Source of the DNA: Leucoraja erinacea
Taxonomy: Eukaryota
Assembly: GCF_028641065.1 (NCBI RefSeq)
Contig: NW_026576151.1
Location: forward strand, 62,001 to 126,000
DNA: 64,000 bases
Direction: 5' to 3'
The position numbers and the translations under genes were made by a program. Within the stretch, counting starts at the first letter, position 1. Each line of letters begins with the position of its first letter. Below are positions 38,369 to 47,226 of this stretch, piece by piece. The notes below the pieces were generated by a model. That model was not told where the DNA came from. It searched no databases and was given only the letters and a program-made list of their open reading frames with translations.

Positions 38369-39745
38369 GTTCTCTGTCTTATTCTTGTGTCTCAGAGTCA
38401 AAGAGTCATAGCGTGGAAACAGGCCCTTCGGCCCAACTTGCCCACACCAGCCAACATGTCCCAGCTACACTAGTCCCACCTGCCCGTGTTTGGTCCACAT
38501 CCCTCCAAACCTGTCCTATCCATGTACCTGATTAACTGTTTCATAAAGGTTGGGATAGTCCCAGTCTCAACTACCTCATCTGGCAGCATTTTCCATTCAC
38601 CCACCACCCTTTGTGTGAAAATGTTATCCCTCAGATTCCTATTAAATCTTTTCCCCTTCACCGTAAACCTATGTCCTCTGGTCCTCGATTCATCTACTCT
38701 GGGCCAGACAAACTGTGCATCTACCCGATTTATTCCTCTCATTCCTACACTACAAGGAATAGAGACCCAGCCAAATCAACCTCTCCCTATAGCTCAGATC
38801 CTCTCGTCCTGGCAATATCTGAGTAAATCTTCTCTGTACCCTTTCCAGCTTGACAACATCTTTTCTATAACATAATGCCTAGAACTGAACCCAATACTCT
38901 AAATGTGGTCTACCAACGTCTTATACAACTGCACATGACCTCCCAACTTCTATACACCCTGAGGCTATTTATGTATAGTAAGGGGCTTAGAATGCTTCCC
39001 TGTGTAGCATTGGTGTTGAGAATTAACGTAGTCAATGTTTGTTCACTGGGTCAGGAAGTCGAGGATCCCACTGCAGAGAGGGTTGCTGAGATATAGGTCC
39101 AGGTATAGTTTAATTTAGTTTAGAAAAACAGCGTCGAAACAGGACATTCGGCCGACTGAGTTGGCCCGACCAGCGATCACTCATTCACACTAGCTCTATC
39201 ACACACTAGGGACAATTTACAGAAGCCAATTAATAGGAATGTTACAAAATTTTGAGATTTTAAAAATCAAGCCTGTAATTTATCCCATCAGATAAAACAT
39301 GAAAAGAATTTTAATTTGATACCTAATTCACTTTCATATCTTCAGTATTTAAAATAGTTATGGTCATTTTCACACTCGGAAATTAGCATCTTGTTCCCTA
39401 TTGCTTTTCCCTTAACTTAACACAAAAGCTGTGATCGAGGACAGTCAAAAGTCCATGACTTTCTTAAAAATTAAGAGAACTGAATAAAATTTTTAATTAT
39501 TATAGATTGAAGCATTCTGAAACAAATATAAAACAATCTTACTTGGATGACCTGAAATTAAAGCATATAATTAGTTAATTACCTAATAGCAGCTAATTAC
39601 AAAATTTACCATTGTGACAGAAATAGTTATAAACACCCAGACTGCCTTGAAAATTCAAAAATGTGATATTCTCAAGATCAGAACTTTAATATCATTGTAT
39701 TATATGCTGTAAGTCCGTAACAGATAGGAAAATAAATTACAATTT

Positions 39746-40071
39746 CTAGCAAAAGACTAGGTCTTTATGAAGATCAGTTGCTAGCTGGTACATTGGCATA
39801 TCATAATCAGTATCATCATCATACTCCTCAGATTGTAACCAATAAGCAACTCTTTACACCTTGTTTTTCCTTTTTTCAATTTTGGCATTGTAAACTAAAA
39901 GTTTTTGCTCTTCAAACCACGCATGACCTGCTTTTCTGCCCACTACTTTCCCGTTAAGAATGTCCTGTAGATCATCACATTTGGAGTAGTCCAAATTCAG
40001 ATAATCTCTGCGAATGCTGTCTTTTGCTTGGCATTTGGATTGACAATTTTGCATTTCTTCTTTGGAGACAT
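39746..40071 (-). pseudogene. Decayed terminal coding exon inside the DNA transposon; Spindlin/Tudor-like C-terminus
   Basis: Acceptor TTTTCTTTACATTTTAAACAG| then VSKEEMQNC...GKVVGRKAGHAWFEEQKLLVYNAKIEKRKNKV*RVAYWLQSEEYDDDTDYDMPMYQLATDLHKDLVFC*, with one in-frame stop. Confidence 0.45.
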
Positions 40072-40199
40072 CTGTTTAAAATGTAAAGAAAAAAAACACT
40101 GAACAGCATTAACAGAAACAAGTTATTTGCAGTTTTAGAAAAAAAAAGTGATAATGATAAAGTTAAGCCTTAAAACAAATAGTAAATAACCAACAAAAC

Positions 40200-41937
40200 A
40201 TTCCGGTTTGAGAAACAGATGGAGTAGACGCACTAAACGAGAGCTCCGGTAATCTTATCATTTTAATAACATTCCGCCCTCTAACTTTTACACCAGAACG
40301 AAGTCAGCTTTTCTTTACTTGTCTGACATTTCTTTAGAGTAAATGTTGCCGTCTCTCTAATGGGCTTCGAAGGGTACATGGTCGAGCAAAAAGGAGGATG
40401 TTGACATTAGCTTGGAGGCCATTACCACGCTGCTCGAGCAACATCAAGAGGCACTAGCCATCGAGTTTAGAACTTTGTTTGGTCGGCTCGACTCAAAGCT
40501 AGGCCAAATAAAACTTACAGTGGAGGATCAACGTGTCTCGTCCCTGGAACTTTCTGCAGAGGATCTTAACCAGCGAGTCGTTGACCTTGAGAACATTTGT
40601 TCTACTCTGAGTGGTGACAATACTAAGCTAAAGGCTAAAGTGGCCGACTTGGAGGGCCGAAGTCGGCGACAAAACATACGCACCCTCGGTCTACCGGAAT
40701 CCACTGAAAGCGGACGGCCCACTGAGTTTTTCTCAAGTTTGCTGCGAGAGGTTTTCGGGAGTGAGACGTTGACATCCCCTCCAGAAGTCGACAGAGCCCA
40801 TCACTCCCTAAACGCTAAACCGGCCCCCGACCAGAGACCGTGGCCAGTCATTCTCCACATGCATCGGTACCAGACGAAGGATCTCCTCATCAGGGAGGCA
40901 CGGTGGAGAGGGAAACCCGAATTTTGCGGCAAACAAATTCGGATTGTGGAAGATTACAGCCCAGAAGTTCAGAGCCAGCGGGCAGAGTACAGAGACGTCA
41001 TGGCAGAACTTTTACACACTGGGACTAAAGGCTGCTCTGCTATAACCAGCTCGACTCCATCTCACGTTGTCCGGTGGAGCCAGAAAGTGGATAAACTCAG
41101 CCGAGGGTGTGCAGAAATACATCAACAGCCACCCTAGGCCACCTAAACTCCCACAATGACTCTGTTTAGCGACTTTGAACCCACTGGATGAGAGGTAACA
41201 CTGTATAGCTCTACCGATTGGCACAACGTGCAGCATGTCAGCTAACGTCTGTGGTTTGTTTACATGTCTGAACGTGCTTATTCATCTGGGTATGCTGCTT
41301 ATTTACTAAGATACTTATACAAAATGTCTACAGCCAAATATCACTATATGTGCACTGTCAATTAGAAACGATTTCCAGCTGTATTTTTGTGTGCTGTTAC
41401 TACATATGGCCTGGCCCTATATCTGCGTGTTGTTGCGTTCTAACTTCGGCTCTTTAAAAGCTTTTATGGGCCAGTAAGTAACTTTCAAGCTACAATCATA
41501 TTTTCAAGGACATGTTAACCCATATTCAGTCTTCATAGCCATATTTTTTTGGGGGGCTATTTAGAGACTGTTCCAATTCCACAGCCATTTCACTTTGAAT
41601 TGCCAGATCAACCTTCTCTAACCACAGTAATATATCCTGCTGGAATCCCTGAAGAAGAAGTGGAGCCACAGCGAAAAGAGATACATGAGGAACTTGGTCT
41701 TGATGATAAGCCCTTCCTTTGCCGTTCTATGTCCTATAATTTTCCAAATGATGAGTTACTGAATAAATATCTGAGAAACATACACCAGTACATTTCTCCT
41801 CCGGATACTGAAGACCTCAAGGTACCTTACAAAATTTAACATTAGACAGGAAGATTCGATTTGTAGTACAATGTTTGTTTGGACAGGAAGATCGCTTTGC
41901 TGCTTCTTTCTAAGAGCTTGCTGCTTCTTCTATAGCA

Positions 41938-42005
<68 letters not shown>

Positions 42006-45000
42006 GTCACTGCCAGTAACATTTTAGCAATTTATATAAACACATCATTACACACTAGTAATTTTCAACCTGCACTGATCCGTTTCTTCATATTCAGCCA
42101 GTCATTTGGTTAATTGTATTTACATAATAACTTAATGTTTTTCTTTATTATGCATGGATAGACACATAAAGCTAGTAAGCTGGAACGTCAAAGATTTAAA
42201 CCATCCTGTTAAAAGAAGAAAGGTATTTTCGCATCTTAAACAACTCAAAACAGAAATAGCCTTTGTGCAAGAAACACATATCCGTTGCTCAGACAATGGC
42301 CGTCTCTTGTCAGGTTGAGTGGGGCAGGGGTTTCACTCTTCCTTTCAGGCTAAAGCCAGAATATTTCTTTTGAGAGTCACATAATGTGATCTCTGACAAG
42401 TTTGGTCGGTATGTAATTGTGACTGGAAATTTATATAATACACTGGTAGTATTTGTCAATGTGTATGCCCCTAATGTAGACTATGTATGTTTTTTCGAGC
42501 GGTTATTTTTATTACTGCCAGACCTGAACACATACTCTCTTATATTTGGTGGTGATTTCAATTGTTGTTTAGATCCTCTTTTAGACCGATCCTCTACTAA
42601 CCCCAGTACAGTAAGTAAATCAGCTTGTTTCATCCAAGCCTTTCTCTCAGCTTGTTTCCCAGTATGGTGTCTGCGATGTGTGGCGCTCTTTACATCCACA
42701 AGATAATGAATACTCATTTTTCTCACATGTCCATCATACGTATTCTAGAATTGACTATTTCTTTCTTGATAACCAACTAGTACCCCTGGTTCATTCCTGT
42801 GACTATGAGAGTATTGTCATTTCTGACCATGCCCCAATTGCTCTGGCCTTGTCCCTTACAGATCTCCCTCAAAAGAGCAGGCAGTGACGATTCAATTCAA
42901 CCTTACTCTCGGATGATAAGTTTGTAGAGTTTATGGAAAGAGAGATAACTTTTTTTTACCACTAATACATCCCCTGAAATCTCTAGCCTGATCGTATGGG
43001 ATGCCCTTAAGGCTTACCTTAGGGGGCAGATCAAATAAAGCAGAAATCCAATAAAGAGCGTTTAGATCTTGCTCATCAAATTGGTGAAATTGACAAGCAA
43101 TATGCGCAAACTCAAAATCCAACTCTTTATAAAAGACGATTGGAACTCAAAACCAAATTTGACCTACTCACTACTCACTCAATTGAACACATACTTTAAA
43201 AAAATAAAGCCATGTTTTATACATATGGAGATAAAACGGACAAATTACTTGCAAATCAACTTAAAGGTGCTAAAGCGAGACAGAATATTTCTAAAATCCG
43301 CATGCCTAATGGCCAGTCCACTTCGGATCACTTGCAAATTAATGACGCTTTCAGAGACTTTTATTCCCAGCTTTATACTTCAGAATCTCAACCGGATCAT
43401 AAGGTAATGCATGACTTCCTGAGCAGTCTAAATATTCCCAAACTCTCATTAGATTTTAGGGAAAGATTGGATGAACCTATATCACAGGCAGAAATAGCTT
43501 CAGCCACTTCCTCAATGCAATCAGGAAAATGTCCGGGCCCTGACGGCTTCCCGGCAGAGTTTTTTTTAAGGTTCTCTCTACTCCTTTCCCCACAGTTGTG
43601 TTCCATTCTATCTGAATCCTACAGACAAGGTTCTCTTCCTCCATCTTTTGCCGAAGCCTGTATTACTCTTATCACCAAAAAGGGTAAAGATCCAACTGAA
43701 TGCGCCTCCTACAGGCCCGTCTCCCTTCTAAACACGGATGCTATCATTTTATCTAAGGTTCTAGCACGTACACTAGAGAATGCCCTCCCTACTGTTATAT
43801 CTGAGGACCAAACCGGCTTTATTAAGGGCAGACATTCCTTCCTTAACATACGTCGATTATTAGATATTGTCTACTCTGCTTCTGAGGATGTCCCTGAGTG
43901 TGCCGTATCTATTGATGCAGAAAAAGCATTTGATCGCTTTGAGTGGGTCTATCTATGGGCTGTTCTGGACAAATTTGGTTTTGGAACAAACTTTATTTAA
44001 TGGATCAGGTTACTATACTCTCATCTCACAGCTTCAGTTTGGACTAATTCGCAGTTGTCCAAGTTGTTCGACTTGTATCGTGGAACCCGCCAGGGGTGTC
44101 CTCTGAACCCCATTCTTTTTAACTTGGCCATCGAACCACTTGCCATGGCCGGTATTTGGAGGGGCAGTACACAGCATAAGGCCTCACTATATGCTGACGA
44201 CCTTTTGCTTTTTGTCTCAAACCCAGGCACCTCTCTGCATTCTGCTATGTCACTGTTCAATAATTTTGGTCAATCTTCAGGTTATAAGATAATTCTTGGA
44301 AAAAGCAAACTGTTTCCCATTAACTATGAAGTACAACCCTTGGATCTTACCAACTTGCCATTCAAAATTGAAAAAAACAAGCTCTCATACTTGGGCATTT
44401 CTGTCACGAGGAAATACGAGGATCTTTTCAAAGAGAATTTTATCATTCTGTTAAACCAGATTAAATAGACGCTAACACAGTGGTCACTCTTGTCAATGTC
44501 ACTTGTCGGCTGGATAAATTAAATCAAAATGACCATTTTACCAACATTTTTGTACCTTTTTCAGGCTCTACCGATTTCTATCCCCAGGTCTTTCTTTGAC
44601 CATCTTGACTCAGTTATTTCCTCCTATATATGGAGAGCTAAGCAGCCCCATCTTAATAAGACCCACCTTCAAAAAACCAAGGCTGCTGGTGGCCTGGCTC
44701 TACCAAATTTTCACTTTTATTATTGGGCTGCTAACCTGCGCTGCCTTGCATTTTGGTCTTTCTTTCACAGCCAGCCCGATTGCCCTGACTGGGTAGCCAT
44801 GGAATTACACACAGATGATAATATGTCCATACCTGCACTACTTGGTTCATCACTTCCACTCCCCTCAATTAAATCTGTACAAAATCCAGTGGTTACACAC
44901 TCTTTGAGGATATGGGTTCAATTTAGGAAATGTTTTGGGTTGCATAACTTTTCTCTACTGAGCCCTATTGCATCAAACCACCTTTTTAAACCATCAACTC

Positions 45001-46136
45001 AGGACCATGGAATGGCATAGGAAGGGTATTGTGTGCTTCAAGGACGTGCTTATGGGTAACACTGTAGCATCATTTGAACAATTAAGCAACAAATTCAATC
45101 TTCCAAAGTCAGATTTTTTCCGATACCTGCAAACAAGACATTATGTGTTCTCTAAACTGCCCATCTCTTCTATACCAACAGACACAACCCTTGTTGATAC
45201 AGTTCTTTCTTTAAACCCATCTCAGAATAGACTTGTCTCAGCTTTATATGGCAGGATGTTGGATCTAAGGCGCGCCCCCATGGACCAGCTCAAGGCAGCA
45301 TGGGAGGAAGACTTGGGTTCCTCTCTCTCAGAAGATACATGGAGTTCCATTCTTAAACTGGTTAATTCCACCTCTCTATGTGCTCGTCACTGTCTGATTC
45401 AATTCAAAGTGGTACATTGGGCTCATATCTCAAAAGCCAAATTGTCTACTTTTTACCCTGAGGTTAGTCCATTCTGTGTTAAATGTAAATTTTCTGAAAG
45501 CCTCTCTTATCCATATGTATTGGTCATGCCCCAGCCTTAACAAGTTCTGGCTCGAGGTCTTTCATACATTATCCCAGGTGTTAAACATCAAATTGGAACC
45601 AAAGCCTCTAATCGCTCTTTTTGGGGTCACTGGTGAGGAGGTTAGATTAACAGCAGATAAACGCCGCCCTATATCTTTTGCTTCTCTTCTGGCTCGACGA
45701 ACAATCCTGCTCAGGTGGACTGAACCTACCTGACAGATATTATGTCCTGCCTAAAGCTTGAGAAAATCAGGTACTCACTTCAACATTCAAATGGAAGGTT
45801 TTAGAAAGCGTGGGGACCTTTTTTAAATGCATTCCAGACTTTATAAATGCTTGATCATCAAGCACAGTTTAACAGCTTAACAGTCTACCCATTCATTTAT
45901 CGTGGATTATTGTTGTGACAGGCTGATATTTGCATATGCTCACTGGCAGTGACTGGGGAGGGGTTATTTTTGGTATCTAATTTTTCTTTTACTGTTGTTG
46001 TCTTGTTATATGTCGGCATAAGTTGTTTTTTATTTAATCTTTTCGTACACTCAGTCTGTAACAAATAGACAACTTTTCACTTTGTTATATCCTGAAAACT
46101 AAATAAAAAAGATTTTGATTAAAAATAAAAAAAAAT
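40200..46136 (+). mobile_element. Full-length degenerate L1 (LINE-1 clade), about 5.9 kb
   Basis: ORF1 40412-41137 (DLEGRSRRQNIR..GLPE, EVDRAH). ORF2 about 42155-45846: APE endonuclease (SWNVK, QETH, GGDFN, YSRIDY, SDHAP), RT (PGPDG, YRPVSLLN, DAEKAFD, GTRQGCPL, LYADDLL) and a C-terminal CxxC..H..W.C. AATAAA and an A-rich tail at 46100-46136. Many stops and frameshifts. Confidence 0.93.
41560..41821 (+). pseudogene. UFSP2: UFSP2 (Ufm1-specific protease 2)-like gene fragment within the L1 inter-ORF spacer
   Basis: VPIPQPFHFELPDQPSLTTVIYPAGIPEEEVEPQRKEIHEELGLDDKPFLCRSMSYNFPNDELLNKYLRNIHQYISPPDTEDLK aligns colinearly with recalled vertebrate UFSP2 ([77 protein letters not shown]). It stops before the catalytic Cys box. 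Confidence 0.75.
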
Positions 46137-46904
46137 CATATTCATCAGTTTCATCAAATCAATTAAATTCATCTAAATTCAATTACTAGATCTAAACATC
46201 TATCTATTTCTTAAGAAAAGGCTACATTTTTTAAATAGTCAGTATCCAAATAACAAAATAACAAACTGATCCCATTCACAATATAACATGATTTTTAAAT
46301 CTCACTTTGTCATGAATTTATACGCCAAATGGAAGCAAATTAATGTTTAATTTCCCATAAATTAATCCAGAAACATCCACTCTCAAGATAATCAAAATCA
46401 TTATTTTTTACACAATACATCTGACTAAAACTGTTGTGGATATTTAGTATGAAAATATTGATCATGGATAGACAATAACACAAAATATAGATGATTTTGC
46501 TGTTCTTATGAAATGATTGTGCAAAAAAATAATAAATGTGATTATCTTGAGAGTGGATGTTTCTGTAATGTGATCGATTGGAATGTGGCCGCTACCATGA
46601 ATTAAGCCCCTATCGGCCGATTCGTATCAGGGCCTAAATAACATTTTTCGCATCATAAGATTAATATGAAGCCACACCAAAAAACAAGAAAATATGTTTA
46701 AAATTGACATAACTTTTGCTTTGCCCTGCGATCCATGATGTTGAAGGCATTGAAGGCATTAGAAGTCATGTTTAACTTTAATCCAGCGATGCAATCGACC
46801 AGCAACCTTTTTTTAAAAGCATGGACGCAAGCGCAGAACAAATTTTCTTCATCAGCTAGAAGCCCGAGGAAATCCCTCTCCGACAGCCAATATAAACCTG
46901 TATT

Positions 46905-47226
46905 TTAATCCCAACCCTTCTCAAAAAGTACAGCCGGCTCTGTCCGTTCTTGTACAGGGCCTCAGTGTTCCTGGACCAGCCTAGTTTACTAGCCAGGTAC
47001 ACTCCAAGGCATTTGTACTCCCTGGTAAACTGCACATCCACAACATTGATGGAGACAGGGGACAGGGGTGTTCCTCTCCTTCTAGTCCTCCACTAACTCC
47101 TTAGTCTTGTCGGTGTTGAGCTGCAGGTGATTCAGCCCACACTACTCAACAAAATCATTGACTACACCTCTGTATTCAGCTTCCCTCCTCTCACTGATGC
47201 AGCCCACAATTGCAGAGTCATCTGAA
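46905..47226 (-). mobile_element. Rex1/Babar-type RT fragment
   Basis: SDDSAIVGCI...LQLNTDKTKELVED...EYKCLGVYL..KLGWSRNTEALYKNGQSRLYFLRR. Confidence 0.7.

What the first reader, a model, noticed from the sequence alone, without database searches (positions are those of the whole stretch)
41549..41839. UFSP2-like host-gene fragment carried in the inter-ORF spacer of a full-length L1
Seen: between L1 ORF1 (ends 41137) and ORF2 (starts about 42155) is a same-strand, stop-free reading frame of about 90 codons with no TE-like motifs, while the L1 ORFs around it carry stops and frameshifts. Knowledge: it aligns colinearly with the region of UFSP2 just N-terminal to the catalytic Cys box (PxPxHFxLP...YPxGIP...RKExH...PF..RS..Y.FP...Y.RN.H.Y..PP), recalled from memory. 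Inference: it appears to cross a UFSP2 exon junction (RK|EI) with no intron and to end at the next exon boundary (CTCAAG|GTACC), which suggests capture of spliced or partly spliced RNA by template switching. It looks clearly diverged from canonical UFSP2, so it may come from a paralog or another lineage. If other copies of this L1 carry it, this is an L1 family with heritable internal cargo, possibly moved horizontally.
Basis: partly seen in the sequence, partly recalled or inferred. Interest (0 to 1): 0.8.

Follow-up and report, generated by a model that had tools for sequence, protein, structure and literature searches.

The report
Spliced host mRNA scrap inside L1
One broken copy of a LINE-1 jumping gene in a cartilaginous fish (likely a skate) carries a 259-base, intron-free piece of the animal's own UFSP2 gene in place of part of its spacer; no other copy found carries it, and it is likely a one-off patch copied from RNA during repair of a DNA break.

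Summary
The fragment is real and is UFSP2 (PDB 3oqc, E 6e-20). Window 41563-41821 matches this genome's own UFSP2 gene on contig C3 at 254 of 259 bases. It is the tail of one exon joined exactly to the next, with the 1,416-nt GT-AG intron gone, so it came through RNA. Short-read contigs carry the spliced join in DNA. It is not family cargo and not foreign: it occurs once in the assembly, and 18 of 26 sibling L1 loci examined show the plain spacer, none the insert. It replaces about 65-68 nt of spacer, has no target-site duplication or poly-A of its own, and sits among short templated or palindromic junction bases. Best reading (0.55): an RNA-templated break-repair patch (class 2 templated insertion) in a resident L1. 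Main rival (0.35): the L1 reverse transcriptase jumped onto host RNA and back during this insertion. The age test does not decide. The open frame has no start and shows no selection. The scan noted other, splice-made LINE/host-exon chimeras elsewhere, not this one.

The parts
40201..46135 (+). Near full-length L1 copy (5' UTR, ORF1, spacer, ORF2, 3' UTR, A-rich tail); lacks the first 3 nt that most full-length siblings start with; both ORFs broken
40361..41159 (+). L1 ORF1 remnant; frameshift near 41010 and in-frame stop at 41043 (end point inferred)
41523..41524 (+). Site of an ~82-nt deletion of L1 spacer, private to this copy, with a 2-nt overlap; starts at a GT but does not end in AG, so not a canonical splice
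41563..41565 (+). 5' junction; up to 3 nt (AGA) shared by L1 spacer and UFSP2 if the L1 was of the variant seen in 4 siblings, which include the two nearest
   Evidence: junction contig X1 41536-41592, 0 differences
41563..41677 (+). Last 115 nt of a UFSP2 exon (host G000:C3:8168272-8168386), entered in mid-exon
41678..41821 (+). Whole next UFSP2 exon, 144 nt (host C3:8169803-8169946); the 1,416-nt GT-AG intron between the two is absent
   Evidence: DNA contigs bridge the join (X1 41633-41750, X2 41563-41750)
41822..41834 (+). 3' junction filler: GT (start of both the next intron and the next exon), an inverted copy making the 10-nt palindrome 41819-41828, then a run that matches the host intron start; L1 resumes at 41835, about 65-68 nt on from where it broke off
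41866..41869 (+). Extra 4 nt in the spacer making an 11-nt inverted repeat (41861-41871); could also be copied from the lost spacer piece
41884..41912 (+). 29-nt insertion built from imperfect copies of neighbouring spacer sequence
41938..42004 (+). 67-G run where siblings have a ~15-nt G-rich tract; real expansion or sequencing error not settled
   Evidence: no contig covered 41894-41935
42151..45850 (+). L1 ORF2 remnant (endonuclease, RT), many stops and frameshifts; limits approximate
39223..40203 (.). Left part of the ~1.8-kb high-copy repeat into which the L1 inserted
46129..46912 (.). Right part of that repeat; about 9 nt overlap with the left part = degenerate target-site duplication of the L1

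Best explanation
A 259-base spliced piece of the fish's own UFSP2 RNA replaces about 65-68 bases of one L1 copy's spacer, and it was likely written in as a patch when a germline DNA break in that already resident copy was repaired. Shown: own-gene origin, RNA stage (intron gone), single copy, loss of spacer bases, no TSD or poly-A, short overlap at one end and locally copied filler at the other. Inferred: a break in or next to the G-rich spacer; reverse transcription of a UFSP2 transcript (possibly nuclear and still holding the next intron), most likely by L1 ORF2p acting in trans; joining by microhomology-mediated end joining with fold-back synthesis, which would also explain the neighbouring small templated insertions. 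The product is a dead, neutral scar with no start codon.
For: 254/259 identity to the host gene with the exact GT-AG intron removed. RNA-type contigs of the same species use the same junction and run on into the next exon (X7, X9). One copy in the assembly. 18 of 26 sibling loci show both spacer flanks 107-140 nt apart against 315 here, none with UFSP2. No TSD or poly-A, microdeletion, microhomology and extra junction bases are the class 2 signs in PMC5110952 (parts 1-2 of 4 read) and match spliced-mRNA capture at breaks in PMC4516963 (passages). The new arm of the 41819-41828 palindrome copies the end of the patch itself, as end-joining polymerases do (PMC11292364, abstract only). Later insertions into these L1 copies are common: 11 gaps of 100 nt or more in 62.6 kb aligned over 20 loci (three rows also hold spacer bases that the window lacks). 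The insert has fewer private non-CpG changes (2 of 249) than the L1 body (76-176 of 5154). Two related organisms show only the intron-containing gene (X11, X13).
Against: The age difference is not significant once changes shared with sibling copies are removed (P 0.29 singletons only, 0.10 intermediate, 0.009 all differences). The insert is in the L1's own orientation, which the rival needs and this model gets only half the time. Five private lesions lie in collinear order within 480 nt just 5' of the G-tract, which one stumbling reverse-transcriptase pass explains as well or better. No empty allele or orthologous L1 without the insert was seen. Palindromes of that size occur at 1.9 per kb in this element, so they are weak evidence by themselves.
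Confidence: 0.55

Rival explanations
1. Double template switch during this L1's own retrotransposition: the reverse transcriptase stalled just past the G-rich tract, jumped onto a partly spliced UFSP2 RNA at an exon end, copied 259 nt, and returned to the L1 RNA about 65 nt further on, finishing a full-length element with internal cargo that never spread.
For: Same orientation as the L1; collinear return to L1; the whole unit sits in one degenerate ~9-nt TSD in an otherwise contiguous target; a cluster of collinear private lesions 5' of the G-tract; ages of insert and L1 not separable; the end at an exon boundary plus an 8-nt match to the intron start suggests nuclear RNA. Double switches by LINEs are described (PMC2104539, PMC4476161; passages).
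Against: In the passages read, the described LINE chimeras end on the foreign RNA at their 5' end and do not return to the first template. The fold-back arm copies the patch's own right end, which fits processing of a DNA end better than first-strand synthesis (inference). The insert looks somewhat younger (not significant).
Confidence: 0.35
2. Heritable internal cargo: a source L1 carried the UFSP2 piece and made daughter copies, with or without horizontal transfer.
For: The piece lies in the non-coding spacer, where cargo would not break either ORF. The assembly may be incomplete and the window lies on a 178-kb contig.
Against: One copy only: all 22 candidates of the DNA search and all 10 of the protein search were scored. 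No sibling carries it. 98% identity to the own gene excludes a foreign donor. No second copy appears in DNA contigs of two related organisms (contigs show presence, not absence).
Confidence: 0.04
3. An ordinary L1-made processed pseudogene inserted later and then lost its tail and ends by deletion.
For: Spliced; secondary insertions in these L1 copies are common.
Against: No poly-A, no TSD, more than 500 nt of coding sequence plus the 3' UTR would have to go at the 3' end, leaving a cut exactly at an exon boundary.
Confidence: 0.04
4. Assembly artefact or contamination by cDNA.
For: Small unplaced contig; a 67-G run nearby; no listed contig covers the 3' junction or 41894-41935; X1/X2 may be the assembly's own sample.
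Against: DNA contigs carry the 5' junction (57 nt, 0 differences; under the tool's 31-per-side bar) and bridge the spliced join with the insert's private letters (118 nt, 0 differences). Those letters differ from the host mRNA contigs (5 differences), so this is not present-day cDNA.
Confidence: 0.02

Closest known systems
Class 2 templated sequence insertions (Onozawa and Aplan 2016, PMC5110952; parts 1-2 of 4 read)
   Same: Distant intact donor, spliced cDNA piece, no TSD, no poly-A, microdeletion, microhomology and extra junction bases; size within the 73-414 bp given for experimental events
   Different: In a cartilaginous fish; lands inside an L1 spacer; polymorphism and an empty allele not shown
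RT-product-mediated break repair in mouse zygotes (Ono et al. 2015, PMC4516963; passages)
   Same: Both-end-truncated spliced mRNA pieces (Pcnt, Inadl) joined by 1-5 nt microhomologies
   Different: Those were induced CRISPR breaks; this is a natural germline fossil
LINE template-switch chimeras, double and triple (Gogvadze et al. 2007, PMC2104539; Doucet et al. 2015, PMC4476161; passages)
   Same: Same-orientation fusion of LINE and cellular RNA inside one TSD
   Different: There the foreign RNA forms the 5' end; here L1 sequence resumes on both sides and the element is full length
LTR-mediated retrocopies (Tan et al. 2016, PMC5131818; passages)
   Same: Internal mRNA piece replacing part of the element, short shared sequence or added bases at the junctions
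   Different: Carrier is a non-LTR L1 with no particle-based strand transfer; no secondary spread
Gene capture by Drosophila telomeric non-LTR elements (PMC13534243; passages)
   Same: Host coding fragment of similar size (140-235 bp there) inside a non-LTR element
   Different: Those are fixed in multi-copy families and mostly piRNA-pathway genes; this is single-copy, in a dead element, from a UFM1 protease gene

Membership tests
L1 clade element (carrier) | ORF1p-like and EN/RT ORF2p-like frames, A-rich tail, TSD | tested here: met
   TSD degenerate (~9 nt) here, 11-13 nt in 2 of 3 siblings with both ends
Class 2 templated insertion / RT-mediated break repair | Donor locus distant and intact | tested here: met
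   host gene on C3 with matched exons from start to stop and catalytic Cys motif
Class 2 templated insertion / RT-mediated break repair | RNA origin (intron missing) | tested here: met
Class 2 templated insertion / RT-mediated break repair | No TSD and no poly-A at the insert | tested here: met
Class 2 templated insertion / RT-mediated break repair | Microdeletion, microhomology, added junction bases | tested here: met
   65-68 nt lost; 0-3 nt overlap at 5'; 11-13 nt filler at 3'
Class 2 templated insertion / RT-mediated break repair | Inserted into a pre-existing chromosomal site (empty allele exists or existed) | tested here: inconclusive
   age test undecided; no second copy of the locus among the 40 of 2366 candidates scored in the own assembly; orthologous locus in relatives not obtained
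Class 2 templated insertion / RT-mediated break repair | Polymorphic in the species | not testable with these tools
   only one DNA sample of the species was laid (X1 = X2)
Processed pseudogene / class 1 insertion | Own TSD | tested here: not met
Processed pseudogene / class 1 insertion | Poly-A tail after the transcript's 3' end or a cryptic signal | tested here: not met
   ends at an internal exon boundary
LINE double template-switch chimera | All parts in one orientation inside one TSD | tested here: met
   (TSD degenerate)
LINE double template-switch chimera | Parts made in one event (same age) | tested here: inconclusive
LINE double template-switch chimera | Cellular RNA forms the 5' end | tested here: not met
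   L1 5' UTR and ORF1 lie upstream
Element family with heritable host-gene cargo | Cargo present in several independent copies | tested here: not met
Horizontally transferred cargo | Closer to a foreign gene than to the host's | tested here: not met
   98% DNA identity to the own gene; next named proteins 80% and 78%

The most novel reading that the evidence does not exclude
A vertebrate L1 reverse transcriptase left its own RNA in mid-synthesis, copied a still partly spliced nuclear host transcript, and came back to its own RNA, giving a full-length L1 with both ORFs spared and host exons in the spacer: a fossil of the first step of internal gene capture by L1, so far known mainly from LTR elements and fly telomeric elements.
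Probability: 0.35. Interest if true: 0.55.

Novelty: new member of a known kind. Interest (0 to 1): 0.3.

Why it matters
It is a clean natural example, outside mammals, of a spliced host RNA piece written into the germline without the usual L1 hallmarks, with donor gene, empty sibling copies and junction scars all readable. If the rival is right, it shows that L1 can take host exons into its spacer in one step without harming its ORFs. As it stands it is one dead copy with no sign of function or spread.

Tried and rejected
Selection on the open frame: 4.3% of single changes make a stop, so 4 changes leave it open with P 0.84; 2 replacement and 2 silent private changes; no start codon before the UFSP2 part. 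Rejected. The fifth difference (41663) is likely a host change: organism B's gene has the insert's letter, and the four ray/shark-type relatives have Glu there like the insert. Organism C's second exon differs at only 4 places, so one of the 'private' changes may be shared. Splicing as the joining mechanism: no GT donor in L1 at the 5' junction, and the 3' junction has filler. Rejected. Paralog as donor: the tandem paralog is only 52-57% identical. Rejected. Missing TSD as a sign of abnormal L1 integration: my first simple search found none; comparison with intact copies of the target repeat then showed a contiguous site and a degenerate ~9-nt overlap. Dating by divergence from the majority letter gave P 0.027 but fell to 0.10-0.29 after removing shared changes. 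Contig depths of insert versus host (11-14 versus 16-21) are not copy numbers and were not used. Expression: no RNA holder is on record; the two guessed-RNA contigs laid are host mRNA without an L1 junction, which is no evidence on expression of the chimera. No listed contig covers the 3' junction (8 of 23 pieces not shown); a hole proves nothing. A host gene around the L1: none found; a nearby frame gave only a weak tau-repeat hit and no homologs and lies in the repeat. Pfam found no family for ORF1. The protein atlas did not answer. PMC13526784 (passages) held nothing on host-RNA capture. A recalled report of host sequence in a rabbit L1 was not found and is not used.

Full report
Observation. 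Window 41549-41839 translates without a stop for 96 codons. It matches mouse UFSP2 residues 204-287 (3oqc_A, E 6.3e-20) and Pfam UfSP2_N (4e-23). It lies between an L1 ORF1 remnant (hits L1 ORF1p, E 3.6e-5) and an ORF2 remnant (hits L1 ORF2p, E 6e-48). Sibling copies put the element at 40201-46135. It inserted into a ~1.8-kb high-copy repeat whose two halves (39223-40203 and 46129-46912) overlap by about 9 nt, a degenerate target-site duplication.

Donor. A DNA search of the own genome with 41520-41860 scored all 22 candidates. Only three held UFSP2 sequence: the window itself and two pieces on contig C3; the other 19 were L1 spacers matching the first ~45 nt. The C3 pieces are two neighbouring exons of a complete UFSP2 gene at about 8.148-8.190 Mb, which keeps the GWGCAYR motif. 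Window 41563-41677 equals the last 115 nt of one exon and 41678-41821 the whole 144-nt next exon, 254 of 259 identical; the 1,416-nt intron (GT...AG) is absent to the base. Two guessed-RNA contigs of the same species use the same junction and continue into the flanking exons. The nearest named proteins are skate and sawfish UFSP2 (80% and 78%), so the organism is likely a skate. No closer canonical UFSP2 turned up in the genome (only best candidates are scored). A tandem paralog upstream is only 52-57% identical to the insert.

Copy number. A protein search found the window, the two host exons and the two paralog exons, 5 matches from 10 candidates scored. A search with the 3' junction found no second carrier among 25 scored. 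Of 26 sibling loci examined, 18 show both spacer flanks 107-140 nt apart (315 in the window; two of the 18 are near-duplicates). One further locus, and a second L1 copy inside one of the 18, have other long inserts there; 3 lacked the right flank and 4 the left. None holds UFSP2. In DNA contigs of two related organisms the listed pieces stop at the exon ends and run into the intron (X11, X13); contigs show presence, not absence.

Reality of the structure. In run X1 a 57-nt contig covers the 5' junction with no difference (27-30 nt per side, just under the tool's bar for bridging), and a 118-nt contig bridges the spliced join with the insert's private letters; X2 also bridges that join. X1 and X2 are one sample and may be the assembly's source, so this argues against an assembly error but is not an independent individual. 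The 3' junction is not covered by a listed contig.

Junctions. The insert replaces about 65-68 nt of spacer (read from the sibling sequences). At the 5' end it starts in mid-exon with up to 3 nt shared; 4 siblings have that variant, among them the two that share most derived letters with this copy. At the 3' end it stops at the exon boundary plus GT, which begins both the next intron and the next exon. Then come 11 more bases: five make a perfect 10-nt palindrome with the end of the patch, and the last four plus the first four of the resumed L1 match an 8-nt run at the start of the host intron one base off register (null 0.57% by shuffling; 10 of 5464 natural GT-starting stretches; chosen after the fact). 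That hints at a partly spliced template. There is no TSD or poly-A. Within 41523-42004 this copy also has an ~82-nt deletion, a 4-nt insertion, a 29-nt insertion copied from neighbouring bases, and a 67-G run. Other private indels exist elsewhere in the element (four of 8-22 nt in ORF2), so the clustering is notable but was not tested formally.

Age and function. Of the five differences from the assembly's host gene, one (41663) is likely a host change. The other four are two CpG transitions and two non-CpG changes, two silent and two replacing. The L1 body differs from the majority of its siblings at 176 of 5154 non-CpG sites, of which 76 are seen in no sibling; against 2 of 249 in the insert, P runs from 0.009 to 0.29. 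The insert may be younger than the L1, but this is not shown. An open frame after four changes is expected (P 0.84), and there is no start codon ahead of it.

Mechanism. Shown: a spliced own-gene RNA piece was reverse transcribed and fixed inside one L1 copy with loss of spacer and end-joining-like junctions. Inferred, 0.55: it patched a break in the resident copy, as class 2 templated insertions do (PMC5110952, parts 1-2 of 4 read; PMC4516963, passages). Fold-back synthesis by polymerase theta can make such inverted repeats (PMC11292364, abstract only). Later insertions into these L1 copies are frequent (11 in 62.6 kb). Rival, 0.35: a double template switch during retrotransposition (PMC2104539; PMC4476161; passages), favoured by the shared orientation and the collinear string of lesions behind the G-tract. 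Heritable cargo, an eroded ordinary retrocopy and artefact share the rest.

Comparison and novelty. It works like a class 2 templated insertion and meets five of that class's features; prior emptiness of the site and polymorphism are open. It fails as a processed pseudogene and as family cargo of the kind seen in fly telomeric elements (PMC13534243, passages). Its anatomy resembles LTR-mediated retrocopies (PMC5131818, passages) but in a non-LTR carrier. Seven literature searches (listings only, except the papers named) showed no report of a UFSP2 piece in an L1; these cover open-access full text only, and no supplements were read, where catalogues of such insertions may lie. The scan's notes had nothing for this genome or this sequence and listed two splice-made LINE/host-exon chimeras and one snRNA case in other genomes, which I did not check.

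Verdict. Observation confirmed; identity and RNA origin confirmed; foreign origin and heritable cargo not supported. New member of a known kind, interest 0.3. The boldest open reading, an L1 leaving and regaining its own RNA, has probability 0.35 and would merit 0.55.

Noticed in passing
G000:C3:8104515-8139046 (L039-L042): A tandem UFSP2 paralog just upstream of the donor gene lacks the catalytic Cys (AWGSPFH for GWGCAYR) and the His of the Asp-x-His box: a likely pseudo-protease. Two shark 'UFSP2-like' proteins (P0005, P0006) also lack the Cys.
   Followed up: partly
G000:C3:8148532-8189675: The Cys-bearing UFSP2 of this lineage is strongly diverged from canonical UFSP2, and no more canonical copy was found in the assembly.
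   Followed up: partly
G000:C1724:263998-264627 (L028): Intronless peptidase C78 frame of 242 aa with intact Cys and His motifs; likely UFSP1 (name recalled, not tested).
   Followed up: no
G000:C5:64557132-64571203: A third, intron-containing peptidase C78 gene; possibly ZUP1 (recalled, not tested).
   Followed up: no
window 39223-40203 and 46129-46912: A ~1.8-kb high-copy repeat with internal inverted repeats (2366 candidates) that hosts the L1; copies of what looks like the same repeat also sit inside other L1 copies (L074, L090).
   Followed up: partly
L073-L092: Sibling L1 copies carry frequent nested insertions, three of them in the same spacer region (L075, L089, L090).
   Followed up: partly
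L079 and L086; L082 and L060: Pairs of L1 loci with the same flanks: duplicated segments or haplotype copies in the assembly.
   Followed up: no
window 41663; host C3 exon: The host gene of this species reads Gln where the insert, organism B and other rays and sharks read Glu, so the insert preserves the older allele.
   Followed up: partly
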